Sequence record: NC_028822.1
DNA length: 40,829 nucleotides
Source of the DNA: Escherichia phage P483
Strand: one strand, 5' to 3'
In this document: piece after piece, positions 1 to 40,829 of the stretch
How positions within the stretch are numbered: the first letter of the stretch is position 1
How the letters are laid out: every line of letters starts with the position of its first letter
Position numbers and translations under genes: made by a program
The notes under the pieces: generated by a model
The model's database searches: none
What the model was told of the DNA's origin: nothing
The model's input: only the letters and a program-made list of their open reading frames with translations

Positions 1-150
1 CGCGCAAGCGCTTACCATCGTTACGCAAATCATTAATGACCCTATCAGTGCTGCCCTCCAGCGCCGCAAGGTCTTCTTGGTATTGTCGTGAGATTTCGTT
101 GATAGCAGCTTGTTTATCCTCAGTCGCCTTAACTTTCTTAACGTACTCAT
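1..150 (-). CDS. 18.7: o-spanin Rz1 (T7 gp18.7-like), 5' part of the duplicated copy, embedded in Rz in another frame
   Basis: Same sequence as 40604..40753; see the complete copy at 40499..40753. Confidence 0.6.
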   Translation of the reverse strand, partial: MSTLRKLRRLRINKLLSTKSHDNTKKTLRRWRAALIGSLMICVTMVSACA

Positions 151-265
151 TGTGCACCTCCTGTTCCCATTTAGTGTTAGCTTTGTCATAGCCGTGGTTA
201 TACGCAAGGGTAACACCCAAGGCAAACGCAGCGATTATGGCGTAGCTCTTTAAATTCTTGAGCAT
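1..265 (-). CDS. 18.5: i-spanin Rz (T7 gp18.5-like), 5' part only; the gene continues off the window start and its 3' part is at 40425..40829
   Basis: ATG at 265 (minus) gives MLKNLKSYAIIAAFALGVTLAYNHGYDK..., an N-terminal membrane anchor; positions 1-226 are identical to 40604-40829; full length would be 147 aa. Confidence 0.8.
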   Translation of the reverse strand, partial: MLKNLKSYAIIAAFALGVTLAYNHGYDKANTKWEQEVHNEYVKKVKATEDKQAAINEISRQYQEDLAALEGSTDRVINDLRNDGKRLR

Positions 266-363: not shown

Positions 364-633
364 TCAGTTTAGCGTGTACTTCTCATCTTCAGTGAGACCA
401 TCAGCACCCACTAGGTTCTGGTACTCTTCGAGTCCATCTGCCAGTCCACCAAGGATGTTACGGTCTGGCTGTAACTTGGAGACTTGGAACTTGTGGCGCT
501 CTAACAGTTTCCCGATAGCGTTATACAGTTGAGGTGTGCGCTTATCGTCATCCTGAAGGTCTTTCAGCATACGTTGAGCCATCTCAGTATCCAGCATCTC
601 AAGGAATTGAATCAAAGATTTATCGTTAGACAT
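364..633 (-). CDS. 18: Terminase small subunit / DNA maturase A (T7 gp18-like)
   Basis: 89 aa, same length as T7 gp18 and similar to its sequence as recalled; position between holin and Rz. Confidence 0.9.
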   Translation of the reverse strand: MSNDKSLIQFLEMLDTEMAQRMLKDLQDDDKRTPQLYNAIGKLLERHKFQVSKLQPDRNILGGLADGLEEYQNLVGADGLTEDEKYTLN

Positions 634-832
634 CTTTGCCCTCCTTCTTCCATTTGATAATCACATCGACTACCTTGGCACCAATTTGAGCCACTGTGTA
701 GGCAATTGCGGCTACATAGAACCACTCGTTGAGGGACAGGCCGAAGAACAGTCTGGCAGCACCATCAGCAACCCCTGTCCCTACAATCGGAGCAGCCTTC
801 ACTACCTCGTTGTTAAAGTCTAAAGACAACAT
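626..832 (-). CDS. 17.5: Class II holin (T7 gp17.5-like)
   Basis: 68 aa; MLSLDFNNE...FFGLSLNEWFYVAAIAYTV closely matches T7 holin as recalled; hydrophobic core. Confidence 0.9.
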   Translation of the reverse strand: MLSLDFNNEVVKAAPIVGTGVADGAARLFFGLSLNEWFYVAAIAYTVAQIGAKVVDVIIKWKKEGKDV

Positions 833-879: not shown

Positions 880-2904
880 TTATTGGTTTTGAACTAAGAT
901 TCGCGTAGGGACTGAACGGTTGTCTTGGTCGTTACGGAAAGTTCGCCCGTTGTTAGAGATTGTAAAGGTCAACCAGCCGCCCATAGACGAGATATAGTAA
1001 GCCCCATTATCCCCAATCTGAACAGGGTTCCAGCGACCGTTGGTTTGAATCCAGATGGTTCTCCATCGGACATCCTGTGAGAGACCTACGGAAACACCGC
1101 CACCAGCAGAGCCTTTCCAGACCTCAGCCCACCCAGCGTTCTTGCGGACATAGCGACCATCGCCTTGGGCTTGTGTCAATCGACCATTCACTAGGTTGTT
1201 CGTCTCGCTCTTGTTGTAGGCATGTTCGCCAAGGCGTTTGTTTACCCAAGCGTCGATATAAGACCCATACTTCTTGATGTATAAGTTACCATCAGGCGGG
1301 ATATACCACCCCTTATTACTAGATAGCAGTCCATCAATCGTCATGGTCAGTGTGTGGTCATGACCCCCGTCTCCCTTAAGTTGGATGATACCCTCATGAA
1401 AGTTGTTGCTACCTTTCGATACCATGCCAATAGAGAATGCCGCCGGATAACCATTAGAGCGTCTACCATATTGTTTAATCATAGGGTAATACACGTTGCC
1501 ATCCTGATTTCCGGGGAGGCTTTGCGAGTAAGGGGCATTGTTATTCAACTGGCTTGCAAACCCTCCTGACCCAAAAGTTGACTCAGTGTAGAATCTCTCG
1601 TCAGCCCTAATATACTTAGAGACTCGAAGATACCCATCCATAGAGACGTTCTGGTAGAATCGAGAGTCATGGTGAGCGTGGAATCCCCCATAGAAGTCAT
1701 GACGACCGTGCCCATTGGAGCGACCATCAGGCCACGTAGAAGGGTCTGTATTTCCAAACACATAGAAGTCCATGCGTTTTGTACCAGCCTGAATCCACTG
1801 TTCCCATACGGTATCCTTAGCGCCCTGTCCACGCCACTGATTCCATACTAAATCAACTGGTTGTGTGTCATCGCCTCTAGCATCATTGTGGAGCGTTAAA
1901 ACACTAGAGCCTACCTTGCCTTTAAAGTAAACATCACTATCCTCAACCCTGTCAATGGCCTCTGCAAGTGCATTCATGCTGCCTAACTTGTCGGCCTCAG
2001 TCTTAGCACGGTCAGCTTCACTCTTAGAGCGGTTAGCCTCAGTGTTAGCACGGTCTGCATGTCCTTTAGCGGTCTCAACATGTGCAGCAGCCTTGGCAAC
2101 CTCAGCAGCAGCTTTAGTCACTTCTCCGGCAGCACGATTGGCCTCATCACGGGCACGATTGGCCTCAGAGTTGGAACGGTCAGCTTGCTTCTTGGCCTCA
2201 GCGACACTTGCGGTCATACTATCAGCATAACCTTTAGCTCGGTTGGCCTCAGAGTTGGAACGGTCAGCTTGCTTCTTGGACTCAACTGCTTGTTGCGTTG
2301 AGACACCTGCCTGTTGCGTTGAGCGGTCAGCTTCACGTTTAGCACGGTCAGCTTCATCACGTGAGCGGTTAGCTTCCTTGTTAGAACGGTTAGCATGTTC
2401 ATCAGCTTTGGTCACAGCGTTCCAAGCAGACGACTCGCGCTCTTTTACTTGCTTCAGTGGGACAGCATCATAGTCACCAGTAGCGAACGCTAGGTTCACA
2501 ATCTTACGACCACGGGCATCCAAGTGACCATCATTGTTGACACCAATGGTATCCGCAGTTAGGTCTCGTGCCTCTTCAGCTACGTGCAGCGTCTGAATCT
2601 GTGAGATGTTAAGGTCATACGCACGAAGGATTGAGCCATCAGCAAAGTCAACCAGACGGTCGGTTGCAGAAGTGAATCTACGAATCTCAATCATCTGATA
2701 ACCATCGGCAGCAGTCCACGAACGGGAGGTTGTGATTTGGGTCTTAGTGGTAAAGCGATAGTCCTGATTAAGAACCAACTCTTTACGGTCTTTCCCGATG
2801 AGTGTCACTTGGACGAACTTACGTGCTAAATACTCAAAGGTAATCGTGAAGTTCACGGCACCGTTCAGCGGGTAAGTACGTACAGTGGAAATTTTGTTAG
2901 CCAT
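880..2904 (-). CDS. 17: Tail fiber protein (T7 gp17-like) with an expanded repetitive coiled-coil shaft
   Basis: Start moved to internal ATG at 2904 (MANKISTVRTYPLNG..., SD AGGAGG upstream); N-terminal 150 aa and C-terminal tip resemble T7 gp17 as recalled; 674 aa versus 553 in T7. Confidence 0.9.
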   Translation of the reverse strand: MANKISTVRTYPLNGAVNFTITFEYLARKFVQVTLIGKDRKELVLNQDYRFTTKTQITTSRSWTAADGYQMIEIRRFTSATDRLVDFADGSILRAYDLNISQIQTLHVAEEARDLTADTIGVNNDGHLDARGRKIVNLAFATGDYDAVPLKQVKERESSAWNAVTKADEHANRSNKEANRSRDEADRAKREADRSTQQAGVSTQQAVESKKQADRSNSEANRAKGYADSMTASVAEAKKQADRSNSEANRARDEANRAAGEVTKAAAEVAKAAAHVETAKGHADRANTEANRSKSEADRAKTEADKLGSMNALAEAIDRVEDSDVYFKGKVGSSVLTLHNDARGDDTQPVDLVWNQWRGQGAKDTVWEQWIQAGTKRMDFYVFGNTDPSTWPDGRSNGHGRHDFYGGFHAHHDSRFYQNVSMDGYLRVSKYIRADERFYTESTFGSGGFASQLNNNAPYSQSLPGNQDGNVYYPMIKQYGRRSNGYPAAFSIGMVSKGSNNFHEGIIQLKGDGGHDHTLTMTIDGLLSSNKGWYIPPDGNLYIKKYGSYIDAWVNKRLGEHAYNKSETNNLVNGRLTQAQGDGRYVRKNAGWAEVWKGSAGGGVSVGLSQDVRWRTIWIQTNGRWNPVQIGDNGAYYISSMGGWLTFTISNNGRTFRNDQDNRSVPTRILVQNQ
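2161..2279 (-). repeat. Two perfect 35-bp direct repeats inside the tail-fiber shaft coding region
   Basis: ggcctcagagttggaacggtcagcttgcttcttgg at 2161-2195 and 2245-2279; encodes KKQADRSNSEANRA twice. Confidence 0.85.
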
Positions 2905-2953
2905 CTGTAGCCTCCTTTCGGTTAGGTATAATAGGAGGGAAGCTGTGAGAGCC

Positions 2954-2976
2954 TTCCCCAATAGTGAGTCGTATTG
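2954..2976 (-). promoter_or_regulatory. Phage RNAP promoter phi17
   Basis: Minus strand reads CAATACGACTCACTATTGGGGAA. Confidence 0.85.
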
Positions 2977-2977
2977 T

Positions 2978-5900
2978 TTACTTCTTGTCAGCCTTAATGT
3001 GAACACCGTTGGCCTCATAGAACTTAATGAGCATCTGTTGAGAGATTGGGTCGTTAGGAATCATCTCTCGGTGAGCATTCATTAAGCCAGTCATCATCTC
3101 ACGCTCGGTCGGTTTGTTAGGAGCCGTAAGGACACCATAAGCATTTCGACCAGTAGCTAGAGCAGCACCAGCGAAGCCAAGAGCAGGAACCTGTTCACCA
3201 ATAGCGCCCATAATGGAATCACCCATGTCACGAGAAGTCACCGCCTTATTGCGTTCACGCTTGTCATCACCTTTCGGTAGAATCGTAGAGCGAACCATAA
3301 GACCTTGGTCGTAACCAGCAGCACCCATAGCGAAGTTAGCGATACTCAGAGGCGACCCAAGGTGTGAACTTCGGGAGGCCGCTGCGTAGGCAATCATCTT
3401 CGGGTCGAGAGCTTTCTTCAAGTAATCCTTCTGTTGCTCTTTAGGAAGACCAGCAGCTTTCAAGTGAGCCTGTGCCACGTAGTAGGAACCGGCAAGACCA
3501 CCAGAGATAGCATAGGTCAGAGCCATGTCCATAGCGCGATGGTTCTTAAAGGCTTCGTTGCCAGAGCGGATAAACTTAGAGTTCATCGACTTGATGACAA
3601 ACGATTTAAACTGAAGGACTAACTTAGCGGTAGCACCAAACGCATGGGAATCCTGTAAGGAAACCTTATGAGGTCTGAGCATCGTTTCATCAGCAACCTT
3701 ATCAGCTAAACGCCATAAGTCCATAGCACGAGGGTCATTAGCCAGAGCCTTCTTATCCTTGAAGGTGAACTTACCATCTTCACCACGAGTCACGTTCTCC
3801 CGGATGAGAGACTGAATGCCTTCCCACTGTTCCTTAGAGATACTCGCCGACTTCAGCATGTCACCTTTAATCCACTTGTTGGCACCCTTACCAGTGATAG
3901 CATGAGTTACCACATCGCCCATAACACCCTGACGGGCCATGTCCAGAAGGTAGTTTGACGTACCATTGAGGAACTTGGTTAGAGGTGAGCGAGCAGCCAG
4001 TTCTTGAGTTGTGTGCTTAATGGTCCCAACAACCTTTGCTGCAACATCAGGTGTATCAGTTGACTCACGGAGTCGCTGAATGATGTCTTGACGAGTCGGT
4101 CGGATTAACTGGTCGAACTCTTTACCGAACACCATAGAGTGGAGTTCTTTGAGTTCCTTACCGGAGACTGGCTTGTTGCGGAACGCTAAGTCACGCAGTG
4201 CCGGAATGCCATGAAGCATCGCACGGATATTACCCTTCGCCAACATACCGGAGATTTCAGTTAGGTTCTGCAAGCCCATGTATGCGTTCTTCGTAAAGAA
4301 GGACATATCGGACAGAGCACGAACCATAGTGTCACCTACAGTATCCTGATTACGTCGAGCACGACCAGTGAGAATCTTAACGGTATCCTTAAGTGCTTCC
4401 ACTTCACCTTTCATTGTGCCTTTACCTTCAGACTTCTTATCAAGAGCCATGATAGCGTCCTTGAGTTCAGCAGTAGTCTTGCCTGTACCTCCCATGATAG
4501 CAATATCACCATCAACACGGCGGTCATATGCTGGCATCACATGCTTCATATCGAAGTCACGGAGGTCATTCACAGAGAACTGTTGTCCATTCGGTAGAGT
4601 GACTGGCATGTCAGAATCAAACAGGTTACGGGCTTCAAGGAATGAGTTGTTCTCAATCCCAACGAGACCCTCAATGTTATCGTCAATGACACTTGAAGAG
4701 TTGAACTCATCGGTCTTCGCAATACCATAAGCCTTGTCCATAGCGTACTTCTCAGCCATCTGACTAAGCATAGCCTCTTCGTCTACCTTTGGTTCCACCT
4801 TCTCGTCTGTGCCAAACTTCTGGCGCTCTGAAGGTTTAGCCGGAGCAGCTTGTGCACCTTTGGCAGCAGAGGCGGCTTCTTCAGCTTCGGCGGTGGCTCT
4901 GGTGATTCTGTCTTGGACCTTAGTAGCCTGTCCTTTCATGTATTCGAGACGCTCTGTGTTAACACGGACGTGAGACTTCTGGGTCTCAATCATCTGCTTC
5001 CGGCTCTCAATCTTAACAGGAATGGTTTTGCTATTAGGTTTAGCAGCTAGTTTTTCTTCCAACTCCTTCAGCTTAGCCTCATGCGAAGCCAGTCTGTCCT
5101 TGGAGTTCTGGAGTTTCCTTTCACGGTCCGCAACTCGCTTCTCAGCGTTGGTCAGGACGTCTTTTAGTTCTGCTACCTTATCACTTGCCTGTGTAGCTGC
5201 ATCGTCCAGTTTCATCTGGTAACTGGCTGTGTCGACAGACTCTTGGCTTCTGAGGAAGTTCTCAGTGTCAGCCGCAAGTTTGGCATCAGCTTCAGCTTTG
5301 GAGAAAACGTCACTGTTAACCTGTTTAAGGTATTCATCAACACGGGCCTTAACTTCAGGACGTGAATGATAGGATGTCATCCAGCTTGCAGCAATCGCTT
5401 CCTGTAAACCATCAGAACCCCCAAGAGCCTGTGAGTACAACTGCTTGGCTTCCCGTGAGTACACATGAGGAACGTAAGTCCCTTTGTGACGACTGTTAGG
5501 GAAGATAGAGTTGGCCTTGTTACCGAACATCGACGGGTTCTCCATCATCTCACGCTTGAGGTCAAAGTGTTCCTTCATGATGTCCATCACCTTACGTTCT
5601 GCCTTTGTCAAGTTGGCCTGAAGTTCAGGTCTCTCGATAGCCACAGCAGCACGACGATAGATTTCTTGACGGGCACCTTGAGCACCACTCTTGAACATAC
5701 CCACAGACCACTCAGGGTCAGCCATCGCTTCCTTCATTGCACCATAGAGGTCATTGTAGGTTCGCTGGTTGTTACTGTGTAGGCGCTCTTTGATGTCTGA
5801 GGCGGTAGCCCCAAACTTACCATGTGAGCCAGACTCCATACCTGTAGGTGAGCGCACTAAGTCCTTAGCTAGTCCACGGATTTCAGCGTGTTCAGAACGT

Positions 5901-7450
5901 AGAGTTCTCAAGCCGATTTCACTCAGGCCACGCATAGGCAATCCCCAAGCAGCACGTTCAGGGTCTACCTCGGCAAACTCTCTGGCTGTCATAGGGTTCG
6001 CTAGGTTAGTATCACTAATAATGGAACCATCACGCAGCACTACAGCACCCGGTTCAGTTTCCAGTGGTGCATACTCAACGCCGTTGTGCTGTGAGAACAC
6101 TCGGTCTTCACTAGGAGGCATACGGCTTGCGTCATAACCACCAGTGTTACGTGCAGTCTCACGAGCCTCAAAGCGCATCTGTGCAGCAGCAAAGGGGTTC
6201 TCAATCTGTTCAGCACCAGACTTACGGAGACCAGCGGCAACACCATCTGCCACAGCAGTCAGTCCACCAGCCAGTAACATCCCAGCAAGGGCAGCTTCAG
6301 CATAGTGTGCATTGCCACCTGCAACCGATGTACGCAGACCTTCAGAGGCAACGTTAAGTGCACCAGCTTGAGCACCCACCATCAATGCCTTGTTCACCAG
6401 TTTGAATCCCTTGGCTGTACTCCCTGCGAGTGGGACGTAGGTCAACGGGTCCACACCAGCACCAATCAGGCCAGCAGACAGCTTGGCACCAAGTCCAGCA
6501 TCAGCAGCCTTAGCATCAGCCTCGAAGTTCTCGTTAGCCATTTTGATTAGCTCGTCAAGGTTCTCAGCGGAACCACCGAGTACAACGTTCATGTACGCAG
6601 GGTTCTTTACTTCAGTCCGAATCTTCTCCAGTTCTTCAGGCGACCATATGTGGCTATTAAACCGTGTCGGTTGAAGTACATCAGTGAGCACATCAAAACC
6701 ATTGTCACGCTTACCAGCACGGAAGGCAACACCCAAGGTTGAGTTGGAGAGTTCTGCTTCAGCAGCACTACCGAATCCGAAGAAGGTTGAACGCTCATTG
6801 GCTTCGTCAAGAGTTGTTCCTTTTGCTTCCCAATAGTCTTTACCGAACGGCTGATTGGGAGCGGCCTGTTCTTTACCTTGAAAGGACATTGAGTGAGACT
6901 CAGGGAGTTCTGTAGTTACCTTTCCTTTCTTCCCGATACCACTCATAGCAGCATCGAACGGAATCCCTTTACCCTTTGGGGTGATACCACCGAAGGACTC
7001 AATGTCACCACTCTTAGGAGACTTAGCGACATCCAGAAGTGAGCGAAGATAGTTACGCCCTTCGTCACCGATACCAGCAAAGTTACCGGAGTCATAGGCT
7101 TCCAATTGAGGTTTACCAGTACGTCCCTCGCCTTGGTTGTACGCTAGTGCAGCTTTAAGTTCATCCCCATTGTATTTCTTAACGAGGTCTGCAAGGTAAC
7201 GAGCACCTGCATCGATTGACTTAGCCGGGTCGTTGAAGTCCTCATCAGACTGTAGGCCGTAAGCCTGACCAGTTGCCTTAGTGAACTGCATGACACCTCG
7301 TGGCCCTGTTGGTGATTGGGCCGTAGGTTTGAATCGGGACTCTACCCAACCGACCTTCCGAAGAAGGCCATAGGAGACTCCATGTGTGTCAGCAGCTTGT
7401 TGAAATAACGCATCATATTCATGCGGTTCGTTCGGGTTATACTTATCCAC
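2978..7450 (-). CDS. 16: Internal virion protein D (T7 gp16-like) with N-terminal lytic transglycosylase domain
   Basis: 1490 aa; GTG start with SD TAGGAGGT; N-terminus MDKYNPNEP...MQFTKAT and much of the body align with T7 gp16 as recalled; about 180 extra residues inserted. Confidence 0.9.
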   Translation of the reverse strand: MDKYNPNEPHEYDALFQQAADTHGVSYGLLRKVGWVESRFKPTAQSPTGPRGVMQFTKATGQAYGLQSDEDFNDPAKSIDAGARYLADLVKKYNGDELKAALAYNQGEGRTGKPQLEAYDSGNFAGIGDEGRNYLRSLLDVAKSPKSGDIESFGGITPKGKGIPFDAAMSGIGKKGKVTTELPESHSMSFQGKEQAAPNQPFGKDYWEAKGTTLDEANERSTFFGFGSAAEAELSNSTLGVAFRAGKRDNGFDVLTDVLQPTRFNSHIWSPEELEKIRTEVKNPAYMNVVLGGSAENLDELIKMANENFEADAKAADAGLGAKLSAGLIGAGVDPLTYVPLAGSTAKGFKLVNKALMVGAQAGALNVASEGLRTSVAGGNAHYAEAALAGMLLAGGLTAVADGVAAGLRKSGAEQIENPFAAAQMRFEARETARNTGGYDASRMPPSEDRVFSQHNGVEYAPLETEPGAVVLRDGSIISDTNLANPMTAREFAEVDPERAAWGLPMRGLSEIGLRTLRSEHAEIRGLAKDLVRSPTGMESGSHGKFGATASDIKERLHSNNQRTYNDLYGAMKEAMADPEWSVGMFKSGAQGARQEIYRRAAVAIERPELQANLTKAERKVMDIMKEHFDLKREMMENPSMFGNKANSIFPNSRHKGTYVPHVYSREAKQLYSQALGGSDGLQEAIAASWMTSYHSRPEVKARVDEYLKQVNSDVFSKAEADAKLAADTENFLRSQESVDTASYQMKLDDAATQASDKVAELKDVLTNAEKRVADRERKLQNSKDRLASHEAKLKELEEKLAAKPNSKTIPVKIESRKQMIETQKSHVRVNTERLEYMKGQATKVQDRITRATAEAEEAASAAKGAQAAPAKPSERQKFGTDEKVEPKVDEEAMLSQMAEKYAMDKAYGIAKTDEFNSSSVIDDNIEGLVGIENNSFLEARNLFDSDMPVTLPNGQQFSVNDLRDFDMKHVMPAYDRRVDGDIAIMGGTGKTTAELKDAIMALDKKSEGKGTMKGEVEALKDTVKILTGRARRNQDTVGDTMVRALSDMSFFTKNAYMGLQNLTEISGMLAKGNIRAMLHGIPALRDLAFRNKPVSGKELKELHSMVFGKEFDQLIRPTRQDIIQRLRESTDTPDVAAKVVGTIKHTTQELAARSPLTKFLNGTSNYLLDMARQGVMGDVVTHAITGKGANKWIKGDMLKSASISKEQWEGIQSLIRENVTRGEDGKFTFKDKKALANDPRAMDLWRLADKVADETMLRPHKVSLQDSHAFGATAKLVLQFKSFVIKSMNSKFIRSGNEAFKNHRAMDMALTYAISGGLAGSYYVAQAHLKAAGLPKEQQKDYLKKALDPKMIAYAAASRSSHLGSPLSIANFAMGAAGYDQGLMVRSTILPKGDDKRERNKAVTSRDMGDSIMGAIGEQVPALGFAGAALATGRNAYGVLTAPNKPTEREMMTGLMNAHREMIPNDPISQQMLIKFYEANGVHIKADKK

Positions 7451-36869: not shown

Positions 36870-36961
36870 CACTCAATCTTAAAGAATCTTAAAGCCTCTC
36901 TTTAAGTTGTCTTATAGTCTCTTATAGTGGACATAAAGAGAGAATGACCATTATTAGTGTT

Positions 36962-36979
36962 TCTCTCTCTCTCTCTCTC
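36962..36979 (-). repeat. (TC)9 / (GA)9 dinucleotide microsatellite at the phiOL transcription start
   Basis: tctctctctctctctctc read directly; the transcript would begin GAGAGAGAGAGAGAGAGA. Confidence 0.9.
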
Positions 36980-36996
36980 AATAGTGAGTCATATTA
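36974..36996 (-). promoter_or_regulatory. Phage RNAP promoter phiOL
   Basis: Minus strand reads TAATATGACTCACTATTGAGAGA. Confidence 0.75.
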
Positions 36997-37135
36997 AAGG
37001 CTATTGACTCTAAGCCATCTTTAAGGCACTATAAACACTCAGTCGATTCTACTTGTCTCTCTCATTACTCAGAGACTGCTAAACAGAGTAAGATAGTGAT
37101 TCCCCTTTGTGACGAAGCCTATTGTCACTGATAAA

Positions 37136-37210
37136 CATAAGGCACTGACTGAAGGTTAACATAAGGATAGGCATGGTCATAAGGTGATAACTCAAGGTGA
37201 TGACATAAGG
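37136..37210 (-). repeat. Four CCTTATG heptamer repeats between the predicted terminal repeat and phiOL (analogous to T7 CCTAAAG repeats)
   Basis: cataagg at 37136, 37160, 37178, 37204; three more at 37464, 37490, 37568 on the other side of the predicted end. Confidence 0.6.
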
Positions 37211-37412
37211 AGATACTCAATGGTCACTTACAGATAGGGACACAGAGACACTAAGTTATCCACAGAGTTACCAACAGTCTCACCTAAAGTTATCCACACA
37301 GCCTCTAACCTAGAGTTATCCACAGAGTTATCCATAGGTTATCCACAAGTTATCCACAAGTTATCTACAGGGTTACCCACAGGGGGGAAACCACTATGTA
37401 TGAACTATGAGA
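37190..37412 (-). repeat. Predicted terminal direct repeat with the left physical genome end at about 37412 (boundaries approximate)
   Basis: Minus strand from 37412 reads TCTCATAGTTCATACATAGTGG...CCCCCC, like the T3/T7 left end (TCTCA...) as recalled; GTGTCTCTGTGTCCCTATCTGT (37225-37250) matches the end of the T7 terminal repeat. Confidence 0.4.
37246..37381 (+). repeat. Array of eight DnaA-box-like 9-mers (five exact TTATCCACA) in the predicted terminal-repeat region
   Basis: TTATCCACA at 37246, 37290, 37316, 37339, 37350; TTATCCATA at 37328; TTATCTACA at 37361; TTACCCACA at 37373; all same orientation. Confidence 0.8.
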
Positions 37413-40424: not shown

Positions 40425-40829
40425 TTACTTCTCCTTCTTAGCTTGCATTTCAGTTATTGTATTTTGGAGCGCCTTAATCCACGCATCCCCTCTTTGAGTT
40501 ACTCCGATAAGACGCTTACTAAACTCTTCGTCAAGTTCGGCTCGACCATCAACGAGGCATCCACCATTAGCTTGGAGTTCTCGTGTGGTGGCTGATAGTT
40601 TGACGCGCAAGCGCTTACCATCGTTACGCAAATCATTAATGACCCTATCAGTGCTGCCCTCCAGCGCCGCAAGGTCTTCTTGGTATTGTCGTGAGATTTC
40701 GTTGATAGCAGCTTGTTTATCCTCAGTCGCCTTAACTTTCTTAACGTACTCATTGTGCACCTCCTGTTCCCATTTAGTGTTAGCTTTGTCATAGCCGTGG
40801 TTATACGCAAGGGTAACACCCAAGGCAAA
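40425..40829 (-). CDS. 18.5: i-spanin Rz (T7 gp18.5-like), 3' part; the 5' end lies beyond the window end (equivalent to 1..265)
   Basis: Continuous with the copy at the window start; resembles T7 gp18.5 as recalled. Confidence 0.8.
   Translation of the reverse strand, partial: FALGVTLAYNHGYDKANTKWEQEVHNEYVKKVKATEDKQAAINEISRQYQEDLAALEGSTDRVINDLRNDGKRLRVKLSATTRELQANGGCLVDGRAELDEEFSKRLIGVTQRGDAWIKALQNTITEMQAKKEK
40499..40753 (-). CDS. 18.7: o-spanin Rz1 (T7 gp18.7-like), embedded in Rz in the +1 frame
   Basis: ATG 40753 with SD GGAGGTG; MSTLRKLRRLRINK...LIGSLMICVTMVSACAS (lipoprotein signal and Cys) ...SLMVEPNLT resembles T7 gp18.7 as recalled. Confidence 0.8.
   Translation of the reverse strand: MSTLRKLRRLRINKLLSTKSHDNTKKTLRRWRAALIGSLMICVTMVSACASNYQPPHENSKLMVDASLMVEPNLTKSLVSVLSE
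40604..40829. repeat. 226-bp exact duplication of window positions 1-226 (circular-permutation overlap, not a biological repeat)
   Basis: Direct comparison of window start and end. Confidence 0.95.

What the first reader, a model, noticed from the sequence alone, without database searches (positions are those of the whole stretch)
880..2904. Tail fiber with an expanded, internally duplicated coiled-coil shaft
The N-terminal tail-attachment domain and the C-terminal tip resemble T7 gp17, but the protein is about 120 residues longer. The extra length is a low-complexity A/E/R/N/K/S-rich coiled coil (ADRSNSEANRAK-type units). At DNA level there are two perfect 35-bp direct repeats (2161-2195 and 2245-2279) and a duplicated GTTGCGTTGAG unit at 2291-2323, which points to recent slippage or recombination. 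Shaft length changes may tune reach to the receptor or give a recombination hot spot for host-range change.
Basis: seen in the sequence. Interest (0 to 1): 0.5.

Follow-up and report, generated by a model that had tools for sequence, protein, structure and literature searches.

The report
Ordinary Berlinvirus-type T7-like tail fiber
This is the normal tail-fibre gene (gp17) of a T7-like phage of the Berlinvirus group: its long, repetitive coiled-coil shaft and the internal DNA repeats are inherited, fixed-length features shared with many published relatives, not a recent expansion.

Summary
The minus-strand ORF 880-2904 encodes a 674-aa gp17 tail fibre. It lies between gp16 and the gp17.5 holin, behind a phi17 phage promoter. 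The window is a complete Berlinvirus-like genome, about 93% nt identical to PZJ0206 and BA14.

The repeats are real. There is a 37-nt exact repeat (2159-2195 = 2243-2279, 84 nt apart) and TGTTGCGTTGAG occurs twice, 21 nt apart.

- Only 42 of the 121 residues by which it exceeds T7 gp17 lie in the coiled coil (exactly 6 heptads). The other ~81 lie in the distal beta-rich part.
- The long shaft is not a private or recent expansion. Thirteen published relatives have no indel in it.
- 29 of 104 measurable homologue clusters have exactly the same 165-residue anchor-to-anchor span, attached to very different distal domains.
- The near-perfect repeat is shared (34 nt exact) with BA14, FE44 and S523.

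It is best read as an in-register patch between heptad blocks that predates these phages and changes no length. One natural one-heptad deletion, at a 15-nt repeat, shows that slippage can occur but is rare.

The gene is mosaic, with a breakpoint at the end of the shaft. Extended Berlinvirus-type fibres are already published (Sxt1, 2024). Ordinary; low interest.

The parts
880..2904 (-). gp17 tail-fibre CDS (674 aa plus stop at 880-882)
   Evidence: ORF list. phrog_4242 'tail fiber protein' matches end to end at E=6.5e-247. 90% aa identity to S523 gp17 over the full length. Flanked by gp16 (2978-7450, minus strand) and by a holin 100% identical to BA14 gp17.5 (626-832, minus strand).
2953..2976 (-). 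phi17 phage-RNA-polymerase promoter (CAATACGACTCACTATTGGGGAAG), followed by the RBS AAGGAGG at 2911-2917
   Evidence: Aligns with the annotated phi17 promoters of BA14 and FE44 and with T7 phi17. The window has GGGG where BA14 and FE44 have GGG.
2443..2904 (-). N-terminal tail-attachment domain (aa 1-154)
   Evidence: Pfam PF03906 E=6.3e-49, residues 1-154. PDB T7 gp17 N-terminus 7boz/8e4g/8dsp. Foldseek hits.
1957..2457 (-). Alpha-helical heptad shaft (aa 150-316; about 24 heptads in unbroken register aa 158-325); 42 aa (6 heptads) longer than T7's
   Evidence: AF2 predicts one continuous helix 150-316. Hydropathy has a 3.5-residue period with power 125 against a shuffle 95th percentile of 49. 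Heptad position 7 is Ala/Val and position 3 is Ala/Ser. Heptad layout. Comparison with T7.
2239..2283 (-). Heptad block A (ESKKQADRSNSEANR, aa 208-222); contains the exact repeat 2243-2279
2155..2199 (-). Heptad block B (EAKKQADRSNSEANR, aa 236-250); contains the exact repeat 2159-2195. This is the 'A-like' allele of the block
   Evidence: Relatives carry either an A-like or a C-like allele here.
2029..2073 (-). Heptad block C (TAKGHADRANTEANR, aa 278-292), which the alternative allele of block B resembles in PYps50T, Sxt1 and Berlin
2287..2322 (-). STQQAGVSTQQA: two adjacent heptads sharing the 12-nt repeat TGTTGCGTTGAG (plus-strand 2291-2302 and 2312-2323)
   Evidence: Also present in S523, FE44, Carena and Sxt1.
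2132..2167 (-). Two 15-nt exact direct repeats (2132-2146 and 2153-2167; GAGGCCAATCGTGC on the sense strand) flanking one heptad (RDEANRA). This is the site of a natural 21-nt deletion in a metagenomic relative
   Evidence: Repeat family D3. The deletion in contig L015 / protein P0032 maps exactly between the two copies.
1945..1998 (-). Conserved shaft-end junction EADKLGSMNALAEAIDRV (aa 303-320); the main mosaic breakpoint
   Evidence: A300, E303, K306, L307 and N311 are invariant in 61 homologues. Megablast matches to BA14, BSP161 and vB_SEqdws-315 end at gene nt 934-962. Identity profile. P0033-type proteins switch to a different distal domain right here.
1270..1944 (-). Distal beta-rich variable module (aa 321-545), S523/EG1-type. 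It carries most of the extra length relative to T7
   Evidence: 85-96% nt identity to EG1 and 83-97% to S523, but 27-54% to FE44, BA14 and PZJ0206 over aa 391-540. AF2 predicts beta strands, with pLDDT high only for aa ~470-560. No Pfam hit.
883..1161 (-). C-terminal tip (receptor-binding) domain, aa 582-674
   Evidence: phmmer vs PDB 4a0t/4a0u (T7 gp17 371-553), E=1e-24, residues 581-674. Foldseek 4a0u E=1.8e-13. pLDDT 90-95.

Best explanation
The region is the ordinary gp17 tail-fibre gene of a Berlinvirus-like T7-family podophage.

The protein has four parts:
- a T7-type N-terminal domain that plugs into the tail;
- a ~165-residue alpha-helical heptad shaft, inferred to be the trimeric coiled-coil proximal half-fibre, with an Ala/Ser/Val core;
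- a conserved junction (EADKLG.MN);
- a mosaic beta-rich distal half ending in a T7-like receptor-binding tip.

The shaft is a fixed-length cassette, 6 heptads (about 6 nm) longer than T7's. It is shared nearly unchanged by many Berlinvirus fibres and by some Teseptimavirus and Teetrevirus fibres.

The DNA repeats arise because the shaft is built from diverged 21-nt heptad units. The one near-perfect 37-nt repeat is a short in-register patch in which block B carries the sequence of block A, four heptads upstream. The most likely cause is old non-reciprocal recombination (gene conversion) between heptad blocks, inherited by a whole group of phages. It does not alter length.

Host-range variation comes from swapping distal modules by homologous recombination at the conserved shaft and junction, not from changes in shaft length.

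Shown here: gene identity, domain layout, helix and heptad periodicity, conservation of length, sharing of the repeat, and mosaicism.

Inferred: the trimeric coiled-coil state, the gene-conversion origin of the patch, and the functional role of length.
For: Identity and context:
- Synteny gp16, phi17 promoter, gp17, holin.
- The genome is ~93% identical to PZJ0206, BA14 and PYPS50.
- phrog_4242 matches end to end. PF03906. PDB T7 gp17 N-terminus, shaft and tip. Foldseek.

Shaft:
- AF2 predicts a continuous helix 150-316.
- Hydropathy has a 3.5-residue period well above shuffles, and Ala/Ser/Val occupy heptad positions 3 and 7.
- The T7 proximal region is described as a triple coiled coil (bioRxiv 10.1101/2025.10.22.683886).

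Fixed length:
- There are no indels across aa ~165-322 in 13 relatives of 569-674 aa.
- The anchor-to-anchor distance is exactly 165 in 29 of 104 measurable homologue clusters. T7-type is 123 in 30 clusters.
- The 165 class is attached to several distal domains: gp37_trimer, Gp34_trimer and Peptidase_S74. A collar-domain fibre (P0035) has a diverged, differently terminated shaft.
- It occurs with both T7-type and Berlin-type N-termini.

Repeat is inherited:
- A~B identity is 39-42/45 in window, S523, FE44, Carena, PZJ0206, 285P, PhiV-1 and BA14.
- An alternative C-like allele of block B occurs in Sxt1, PYps50T and Berlin.
- KKQ/KKQ/KGH is the commonest configuration, in 10 of 33 rows (32 clusters plus the window).

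Mosaic:
- Identity profile and megablast end points.
- The same distal module occurs on a T7-length shaft in P0017.
- Against S523, synonymous-difference codons are 3.7% in the shaft core versus 32% in the N-terminal domain.

Against: - The trimeric coiled-coil state was not modelled; only a monomer was predicted, with shaft pLDDT about 60-70.
- An Ala/Ser core is unusually weak for a stable coiled coil.
- The direction and mechanism of the A-to-B homogenisation are not proven. The outgroup PcCB251 gives no clear ancestral state. Inheritance of an old 4-heptad duplication with patchy conservation, or import of alternative alleles from other phages, would give the same pattern.
- Low synonymous divergence in the shaft core could also reflect nucleotide-level constraint rather than recombination.
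- The homologue survey is of 90%-identity cluster representatives and used regex anchors. 16 of 120 proteins could not be measured.
Confidence: 0.85

Rival explanations
1. One reading: the shaft has been expanded recently in this phage by replication slippage or unequal recombination between the repeats. Shaft length is then a fast-evolving trait that tunes reach to the receptor.
For: - In-register direct repeats exist: 37 nt at an 84-nt offset, 15 nt and 12 nt at 21-nt offsets, and 18 nt at a 336-nt offset.
- One metagenomic relative (P0032, contig L015) has lost exactly one heptad (21 nt) between the two 15-nt repeats.
- Across the wider gp17 family the shaft span takes many values: 123, 130, 135, 137, 140-143, 147, 149, 154, 158, 159, 165 and 194.
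- P0042 carries two shafts in tandem.
Against: - The shaft length is identical in 13 sequenced relatives and in 29 clusters.
- The repeat itself is shared with BA14, FE44 and S523, so nothing is recent or private.
- Flanks of the 37-nt repeat do not match at offset 84, so it is not a fresh tandem duplication.
- No protein with a 28-aa deletion or duplication of this shaft was found. The one class-137 protein is an unrelated sequence.
- No junction sequence was found in IMG/VR, although that test had only 3 positive controls.
- Both shaft classes occur on both virion backbones: EG1 and PHB20 have the long shaft on a Teseptimavirus, and VB_Ship_A7 has the short one on a Berlinvirus-like genome. 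Length classes are therefore swapped as cassettes rather than grown stepwise.
Confidence: 0.07
2. The repeats are an assembly artefact (collapsed or expanded reads in a low-complexity region).
For: None directly. The region is repetitive, and short-read assemblers can err in such regions.
Against: - The reading frame is intact and the heptad register is unbroken.
- The same block order, spacing and length are present in independently sequenced genomes: BA14, FE44, S523, 285P, PZJ0206, Carena and PhiV-1.
- A 37-nt repeat 84 nt apart is shorter than typical read lengths.
Confidence: 0.02
3. The paired repeats are a template/variable-repeat pair of a diversity-generating retroelement acting on the tail fibre.
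For: There are two near-identical repeats inside a phage receptor-binding-protein gene.
Against: - The repeats are only 37-48 nt long.
- Both lie in the structural shaft, not in the C-terminal ligand-binding end.
- The three mismatches (sense strand T/G, C/T, A/T) are not adenine-specific.
- Both copies are conserved across phages.
- The aligned part of the genome (window 3000-27000) is collinear with BA14-type genomes, whose listed gene products include no reverse transcriptase.
Confidence: 0.01

Closest known systems
Escherichia phage vB_EcoP_S523 gp17 (AWY04277.1) and the metagenomic cluster P0001
   Same: Same length (674 aa) and 90% aa identity end to end. Same N-terminal domain, shaft, distal module and tip.
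   Different: 86% nt identity overall. The N-terminal third of the window gene is FE44/BA14/PZJ0206-like (93-100% nt), whereas S523 is 82-88% there. The window gene is therefore a different mosaic of the same modules.
Bacteriophage T7 gp17 (NP_042005; PDB 7boz, 7ey9, 8dsp, 4a0t/4a0u)
   Same: N-terminal tail-attachment domain (about 70% identity in the structural alignment). A heptad shaft ending in (Q/E)ADRA..EADKL. A C-terminal tip (E=1e-24). The same genomic position and promoter.
   Different: 121 aa longer: +42 aa (6 heptads) in the shaft and about +81 aa between shaft and tip. The shaft core position that is Phe in T7 is Ala/Ser here. The Pfam gp37_trimer and gp37_C models that hit T7 do not reach E<=1 here.
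Sxt1 / Sekstaphage-1 gp17, the 'extended lateral tail fiber' (PMC11680406)
   Same: 71% aa identity. The same 165-class shaft, junction and tip type. Published as an elongated, Berlinvirus-derived fibre.
   Different: A different distal module (FE44/Carena-type; 35-57% nt over aa 391-540). Block B carries the C-like allele (KGHADRSNKEADR) instead of the A-like one, so Sxt1 lacks the long exact repeat (A~B 30/45; longest exact run 14 nt).
Yersinia phage Berlin / Yep-phi gp17 (569 aa), type members of Berlinvirus
   Same: Same N-terminal domain and a shaft of the same length.
   Different: A much shorter distal part (569 aa in total). Block B is C-like or diverged. 53% aa identity overall.

Membership tests
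T7 gp17-type podophage tail fibre | N-terminal Phage_T7_tail (PF03906) tail-attachment domain | tested here: met
   PF03906 E=6.3e-49, 166 bits against a cutoff of 25.2, residues 1-154. phmmer vs PDB 7boz E=2.7e-98. Foldseek 8dsp/7ey9/7boz.
T7 gp17-type podophage tail fibre | Gene located between gp16 (internal virion protein D) and gp17.5 holin, behind a phage-RNAP promoter | tested here: met
   The ORF upstream in the direction of transcription (2978-7450, minus strand) is the gp16 position (annotations). The next ORF in the direction of transcription is 100% identical to BA14 gp17.5. The phi17 promoter aligns with the BA14, FE44 and T7 promoters.
T7 gp17-type podophage tail fibre | Alpha-helical heptad-repeat proximal shaft following the N-terminal domain | tested here: met
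   AF2 helix 150-316. 3.5-residue hydropathy periodicity with power 125 against a shuffle 95th percentile of 49. Homology to T7 residues 176-292.
T7 gp17-type podophage tail fibre | C-terminal tip domain homologous to T7 gp17 residues ~465-553 | tested here: met
   phmmer vs 4a0t/4a0u E=1e-24, query 581-674. Foldseek E=1.8e-13. pLDDT >90.
T7 gp17-type podophage tail fibre | Pyramid / gp37_trimer domain (PF20744) preceding the tip | tested here: inconclusive
   No Pfam hit at E<=1 for aa 317-674, while T7 gives PF20744 at E=1.6e-40. The Foldseek alignment to 4a0u nevertheless spans 222 columns, more than the tip alone.
T7 gp17-type podophage tail fibre | Homotrimer, six fibres per virion | not testable with these tools
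   Only monomer prediction was available. Inferred from homology to T7 gp17.
Berlinvirus-type long-shaft ('165-class') gp17 | Exactly 165 residues between the DARGRxIVN anchor and the EADKL junction, containing the GYADSM landmark and the A/B/C K..ADRS blocks | tested here: met
   The window protein aligns without any indel to 13 such fibres. The class has 29 clusters. The block table places the window in the commonest KKQ/KKQ/KGH configuration.
Slippage-prone contingency repeat / hypervariable tandem array | Head-to-tail tandem array of near-identical units | tested here: not met
   TRF finds only one weak array (1990-2055, period 21, 3.1 copies, 73% matches). The 37-nt repeats are 84 nt apart with non-matching sequence between them and after them.
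Slippage-prone contingency repeat / hypervariable tandem array | Unit-number polymorphism among close relatives | tested here: not met
   0 of 13 genomes. 1 of the 32 homologue clusters of this shaft family differs, by one heptad.
Diversity-generating retroelement target | TR/VR pair with adenine-specific differences, plus a reverse transcriptase | tested here: not met
   The mismatches are T/G, C/T and A/T. Both copies are conserved across phages. The aligned part of the genome (window 3000-27000) is collinear with BA14-type genomes whose listed gene products include no RT. The window was not searched specifically for an RT.

The most novel reading that the evidence does not exclude
The 165-class shaft behaves as a fixed-length, nucleotide-conserved 'adaptor cassette'. 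It is passed between Berlinvirus, Teseptimavirus and Teetrevirus fibres. It provides the homology for swapping distal receptor-binding modules. Internally it undergoes in-register gene conversion between heptad blocks A, B and C, giving two alleles of block B, while heptad-number changes are selected against. On this reading, the repeats record concerted evolution under a length constraint rather than expansion.
Probability: 0.35. Interest if true: 0.3.

Novelty: new member of a known kind. Interest (0 to 1): 0.15.

Why it matters
It matters little for discovery. The gene is a new mosaic allele (at most 90% aa identity to anything in the databases searched) of a tail-fibre type that is already sequenced many times and already described as 'extended' (Sxt1).

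The useful outcome is a corrected picture for anyone engineering T7-family fibres:
- The long shaft is a conserved 6-heptad-longer cassette that tolerates many distal modules and both N-terminal types.
- The natural crossover point is the EADKLG.MN junction.
- Shaft length is not what varies with host range among relatives.

Tried and rejected
- **Overlapping gene in the shaft.** All five alternative frames contain stops in the window and in 13 relatives. The antisense ORFs listed are compositional. Rejected.
- **DGR.** Rejected; see rival explanations.
- **A/B recombinant junctions in IMG/VR.** I searched for both the 84-nt deletion and the 84-nt duplication junction. Neither was found. The positive-control pattern found only 3 contigs, so this test has almost no power.
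- **Shaft class 137 (165 minus 28).** I checked it as a candidate A/B deletion. The single protein (P0119) has an unrelated shaft sequence.
- **Pfam on the distal half.** No significant family.
- **AF2 full-length monomer.** Mean pLDDT was 66.6. Only aa ~470-560 and the tip were confident. The N-terminal domain was partly poor (aa 81-141 below 50). The model was used only for secondary structure and for the Foldseek hits to T7 structures.
- **BASEL paper (PMC11990801).** It contains nothing specific on Berlinvirus fibres.
- **One paper search** failed on a short term.
Full report
**What is there.**
- The only long ORF covering 880-2904 is on the minus strand. With the ATG at 2904 it encodes 674 aa plus a stop.
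- It is preceded by AAGGAGG (2911-2917). Upstream of that is a 24-nt sequence (2953-2976, minus strand) that aligns with the annotated phi17 promoters of BA14 and FE44 and with T7 phi17.
- The gene upstream in the direction of transcription is the 1490-aa gp16 homologue. The next gene in the direction of transcription is 100% identical to the BA14 gp17.5 holin.
- The window has a 226-bp terminal direct repeat. Its central 24 kb is ~93% identical over 96-97% of its length to Enterobacter phage PZJ0206, Yersinia phage PYPS50 and coliphage BA14. It is therefore a complete genome of a Berlinvirus-like member of the Studiervirinae, written in reverse orientation.
- The protein matches phrog_4242 'tail fiber protein' end to end (E=6.5e-247). 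It has the Pfam Phage_T7_tail N-terminal domain (E=6e-49).
- It matches solved T7 gp17 structures at the N-terminus (7boz and others, residues 1-193), weakly through the shaft (217-333), and at the tip (4a0t/4a0u, residues 581-674, E=1e-24). Foldseek on the AF2 model finds the same T7 structures.

**Check of the observation.**
- The two 35-nt strings are identical. The exact match is actually 37 nt (2159-2195 and 2243-2279) inside a 45/48 match, with an offset of 84 nt, i.e. 28 codons or four heptads.
- GTTGCGTTGAG occurs at 2292 and 2313 (offset 21 nt) and encodes the two STQQ motifs.
- Outside the terminal repeat, this is the longest exact direct repeat in the window.
- The shaft is itself a heptad repeat, so the fair background is in-register 45-nt pairs within the shaft. 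Their mean is 20.0 identical nt (SD 5.5), and the best pair that does not involve blocks A and B scores 35/45. The A/B pair scores 42. The repeat is real and above background.
- The size comparison with T7 is right: 674 vs 553 aa.

**Where the extra length is.**
- Aligned anchor points give window 163 = T7 164, window 318 = T7 277, and window 582 = T7 460 (alignment A1).
- The shaft therefore contributes +42 residues, exactly six heptads.
- The region between shaft and tip contributes about +81 residues. This region is beta-rich in the AF2 model and has no Pfam match.

**The shaft.**
- From about aa 158 to 325 the sequence can be written as 24 heptads in one unbroken register.
- Position 7 is Ala (16) or Val (6). 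Position 3 is Ala (13) or Ser (8). Position 2 is Arg or Lys. Position 6 is Glu or Gln.
- Hydropathy shows a 3.5-residue period with power 125, against a 95th percentile of 49 for shuffles. The distal part shows none.
- AF2 (monomer, 61-sequence alignment) predicts a single helix 150-316 with pLDDT about 60-70.
- The equivalent T7 region is described from AFM, SAXS and modelling as a dynamic triple-helical coiled coil, residues ~160-250, followed by a hinge (bioRxiv 10.1101/2025.10.22.683886).
- By inference, six extra heptads add about 6 nm (0.148 nm per residue, a textbook coiled-coil rise) to the proximal half-fibre.

**Is it an expansion, and is it recent? No.**
- Thirteen published fibres were aligned: S523, EG1, FE44, Carena, Sxt1, PZJ0206, 285P, PhiV-1, PYps50T, BA14, PHB20, PcCB251 and Berlin. 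They range from 569 to 674 aa. They align to the window through aa ~165-322 without a single indel. All their length differences lie distal to the shaft.
- In a search of 5.8 billion clustered proteins I measured the span between the DARGRxIVN anchor and the EADKL junction in the top 120 hits.
- The two dominant classes are 123 residues (T7-type, 30 clusters) and 165 residues (this type, 29 clusters). Minor classes are 130, 135, 137, 140-143, 147, 149, 154, 158, 159 and 194.
- The 165 class is joined to unrelated distal parts: gp37_trimer, Gp34_trimer and Peptidase_S74 chaperone domains. A collar-domain fibre (P0035) has a diverged, differently terminated shaft.
- It is joined to both Berlin-type (MANKISTVRTYPLNGA) and T7-type (MANVIKTVLTYQLDGS) N-termini.
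- Conversely, the window's own distal module occurs on a T7-length shaft in P0017. The Berlinvirus-like phage VB_Ship_A7 has a 123-class shaft.
- Shaft classes are therefore cassettes that assort with other modules, not a length that drifts.

**The 37-nt repeat is inherited.**
- Blocks A (aa 208-222) and B (aa 236-250) are 39-42/45 nt identical in the window, S523, FE44, Carena, PZJ0206, 285P, PhiV-1 and BA14.
- Exact runs are 34 nt in S523, FE44 and BA14. The window's 37 results from one further synonymous identity, GCC vs GCT.
- At offset 84 the sequences on either side of the patch do not match. This is therefore not a fresh 84-nt tandem duplication.
- In Sxt1, PYps50T and Berlin, block B instead reads KGHADRS... 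and resembles block C (aa 278-292), up to 37/45 in PYps50T. In the P0032 contig it is block A that carries KGH.
- Across the 33 rows tabulated (32 homologue clusters plus the window), KKQ/KKQ/KGH is the commonest configuration (10) and KKQ/KGH/KGH occurs in 3.
- The simplest reading is in-register, non-reciprocal exchange between heptad blocks, or import of alternative alleles. This happened before these phages diverged and left length unchanged.
- The direction cannot be settled with the outgroup available.

**Can slippage happen? Yes, rarely.**
- One metagenomic relative (P0032, contig L015) has a 158-residue span.
- The DNA alignment shows a clean 21-nt deletion of the heptad RDEANRA. It lies exactly between the two 15-nt direct repeats at window 2132-2146 and 2153-2167.
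- P0042 carries a T7-type shaft followed by a complete Berlin-type shaft.
- No 28-residue deletion or duplication of this shaft was found. Junction searches in IMG/VR were negative but underpowered.

**Mosaicism and recombination.**
- In 90-nt windows, the first ~300 codons are 92-100% identical to FE44 and 85-100% to BA14 and PZJ0206.
- Codons ~330-510 are 85-96% identical to EG1 and 83-97% to S523, but only ~30-50% to BA14 and PZJ0206.
- The last ~130 codons are 75-91% identical to many phages.
- Megablast matches to BA14, BSP161 and vB_SEqdws-315 stop at gene nt 934-962, which is the EADKLG.MN junction.
- Against S523, Carena and EG1, 30-34% of N-terminal-domain codons differ synonymously. 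Only 3.7-9.9% do so in the shaft core, aa 195-275.
- The shaft core therefore has its own, more recent, shared history.
The conserved shaft and junction supply homology for exchanging distal modules between phages.

**Comparison with what is known.**
- The closest protein is S523 gp17, together with cluster P0001: 90% aa identity and the same length.
- Elongated Berlinvirus-type fibres have already been described for Sxt1. That fibre is 71% identical and has the same shaft. Its authors attribute its length to insertions relative to T3 and T7, and its origin to recombination with a Berlinvirus (PMC11680406).
- The window gene is thus a new mosaic allele of a known fibre type.

**Verdict.** The DNA observation is correct. 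It is an ordinary feature of low interest.

Noticed in passing
window 1-226 and 40604-40829: Exact 226-bp terminal direct repeat. The window is a complete T7-like linear genome with its genes on the minus strand.
   Followed up: partly
window 2953-2976 (-) and about 10 other sites (plus-strand starts 10821, 15262, 16252, 18865, 27402, 30202, 30723, 31348, 37985): Repeated phage-RNA-polymerase promoter cores (AATACGACTCACTAT[T/A]GGG on the minus strand). The phi17 copy has GGGG at the start site where BA14 and FE44 have GGG.
   Followed up: partly
window 1654-1713 (-), gp17 aa 398-417: His-rich motif GHGRHDFYGGFHAHHDSRFY in the distal module. It is conserved (GRHDFYGGFHSHH) in the S523-like cluster P0001, in EG1 and in P0017. 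From memory, it is reminiscent of the HxH metal-binding motifs of other trimeric phage fibres. Not tested.
   Followed up: no
L015:1560-1840 (Logan ERR15093691 contig, protein P0032): A natural one-heptad (21-nt) deletion in the same shaft, exactly between two 15-nt direct repeats. In this relative, block A rather than block B carries the KGH variant.
   Followed up: yes
protein P0042 (758 aa, NCBI source): A gp17 homologue with a T7-type shaft followed in tandem by a complete Berlin-type shaft, and then a different distal domain. This is a fusion that lengthens the rod.
   Followed up: partly
window gp17 aa 195-275 (window ~2080-2322): The shaft core has far fewer synonymous differences from S523, Carena and EG1 (3.7-9.9% of codons) than the N-terminal domain of the same gene (30-34%). 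This points to a separate recombination history or to nucleotide-level constraint.
   Followed up: partly
window 36899-37360; also 18822 and 31299: A cluster of short repeats near one genome end: a TC run at 36962, several copies of GTTATCCACA, and 17-nt repeats at 37254/37314 and 37338/37349. Separately, the 20-nt repeat CTTAAAGTTAAACTTAAAGT occurs at two distant sites.
   Followed up: no
window 1955-2473 (+) and 2214-2402 (-): Several 62-91-aa ORFs antisense to, or out of frame with, the shaft. Every alternative frame has stops across the shaft in the window and in 13 relatives, so these are compositional artefacts.
   Followed up: yes
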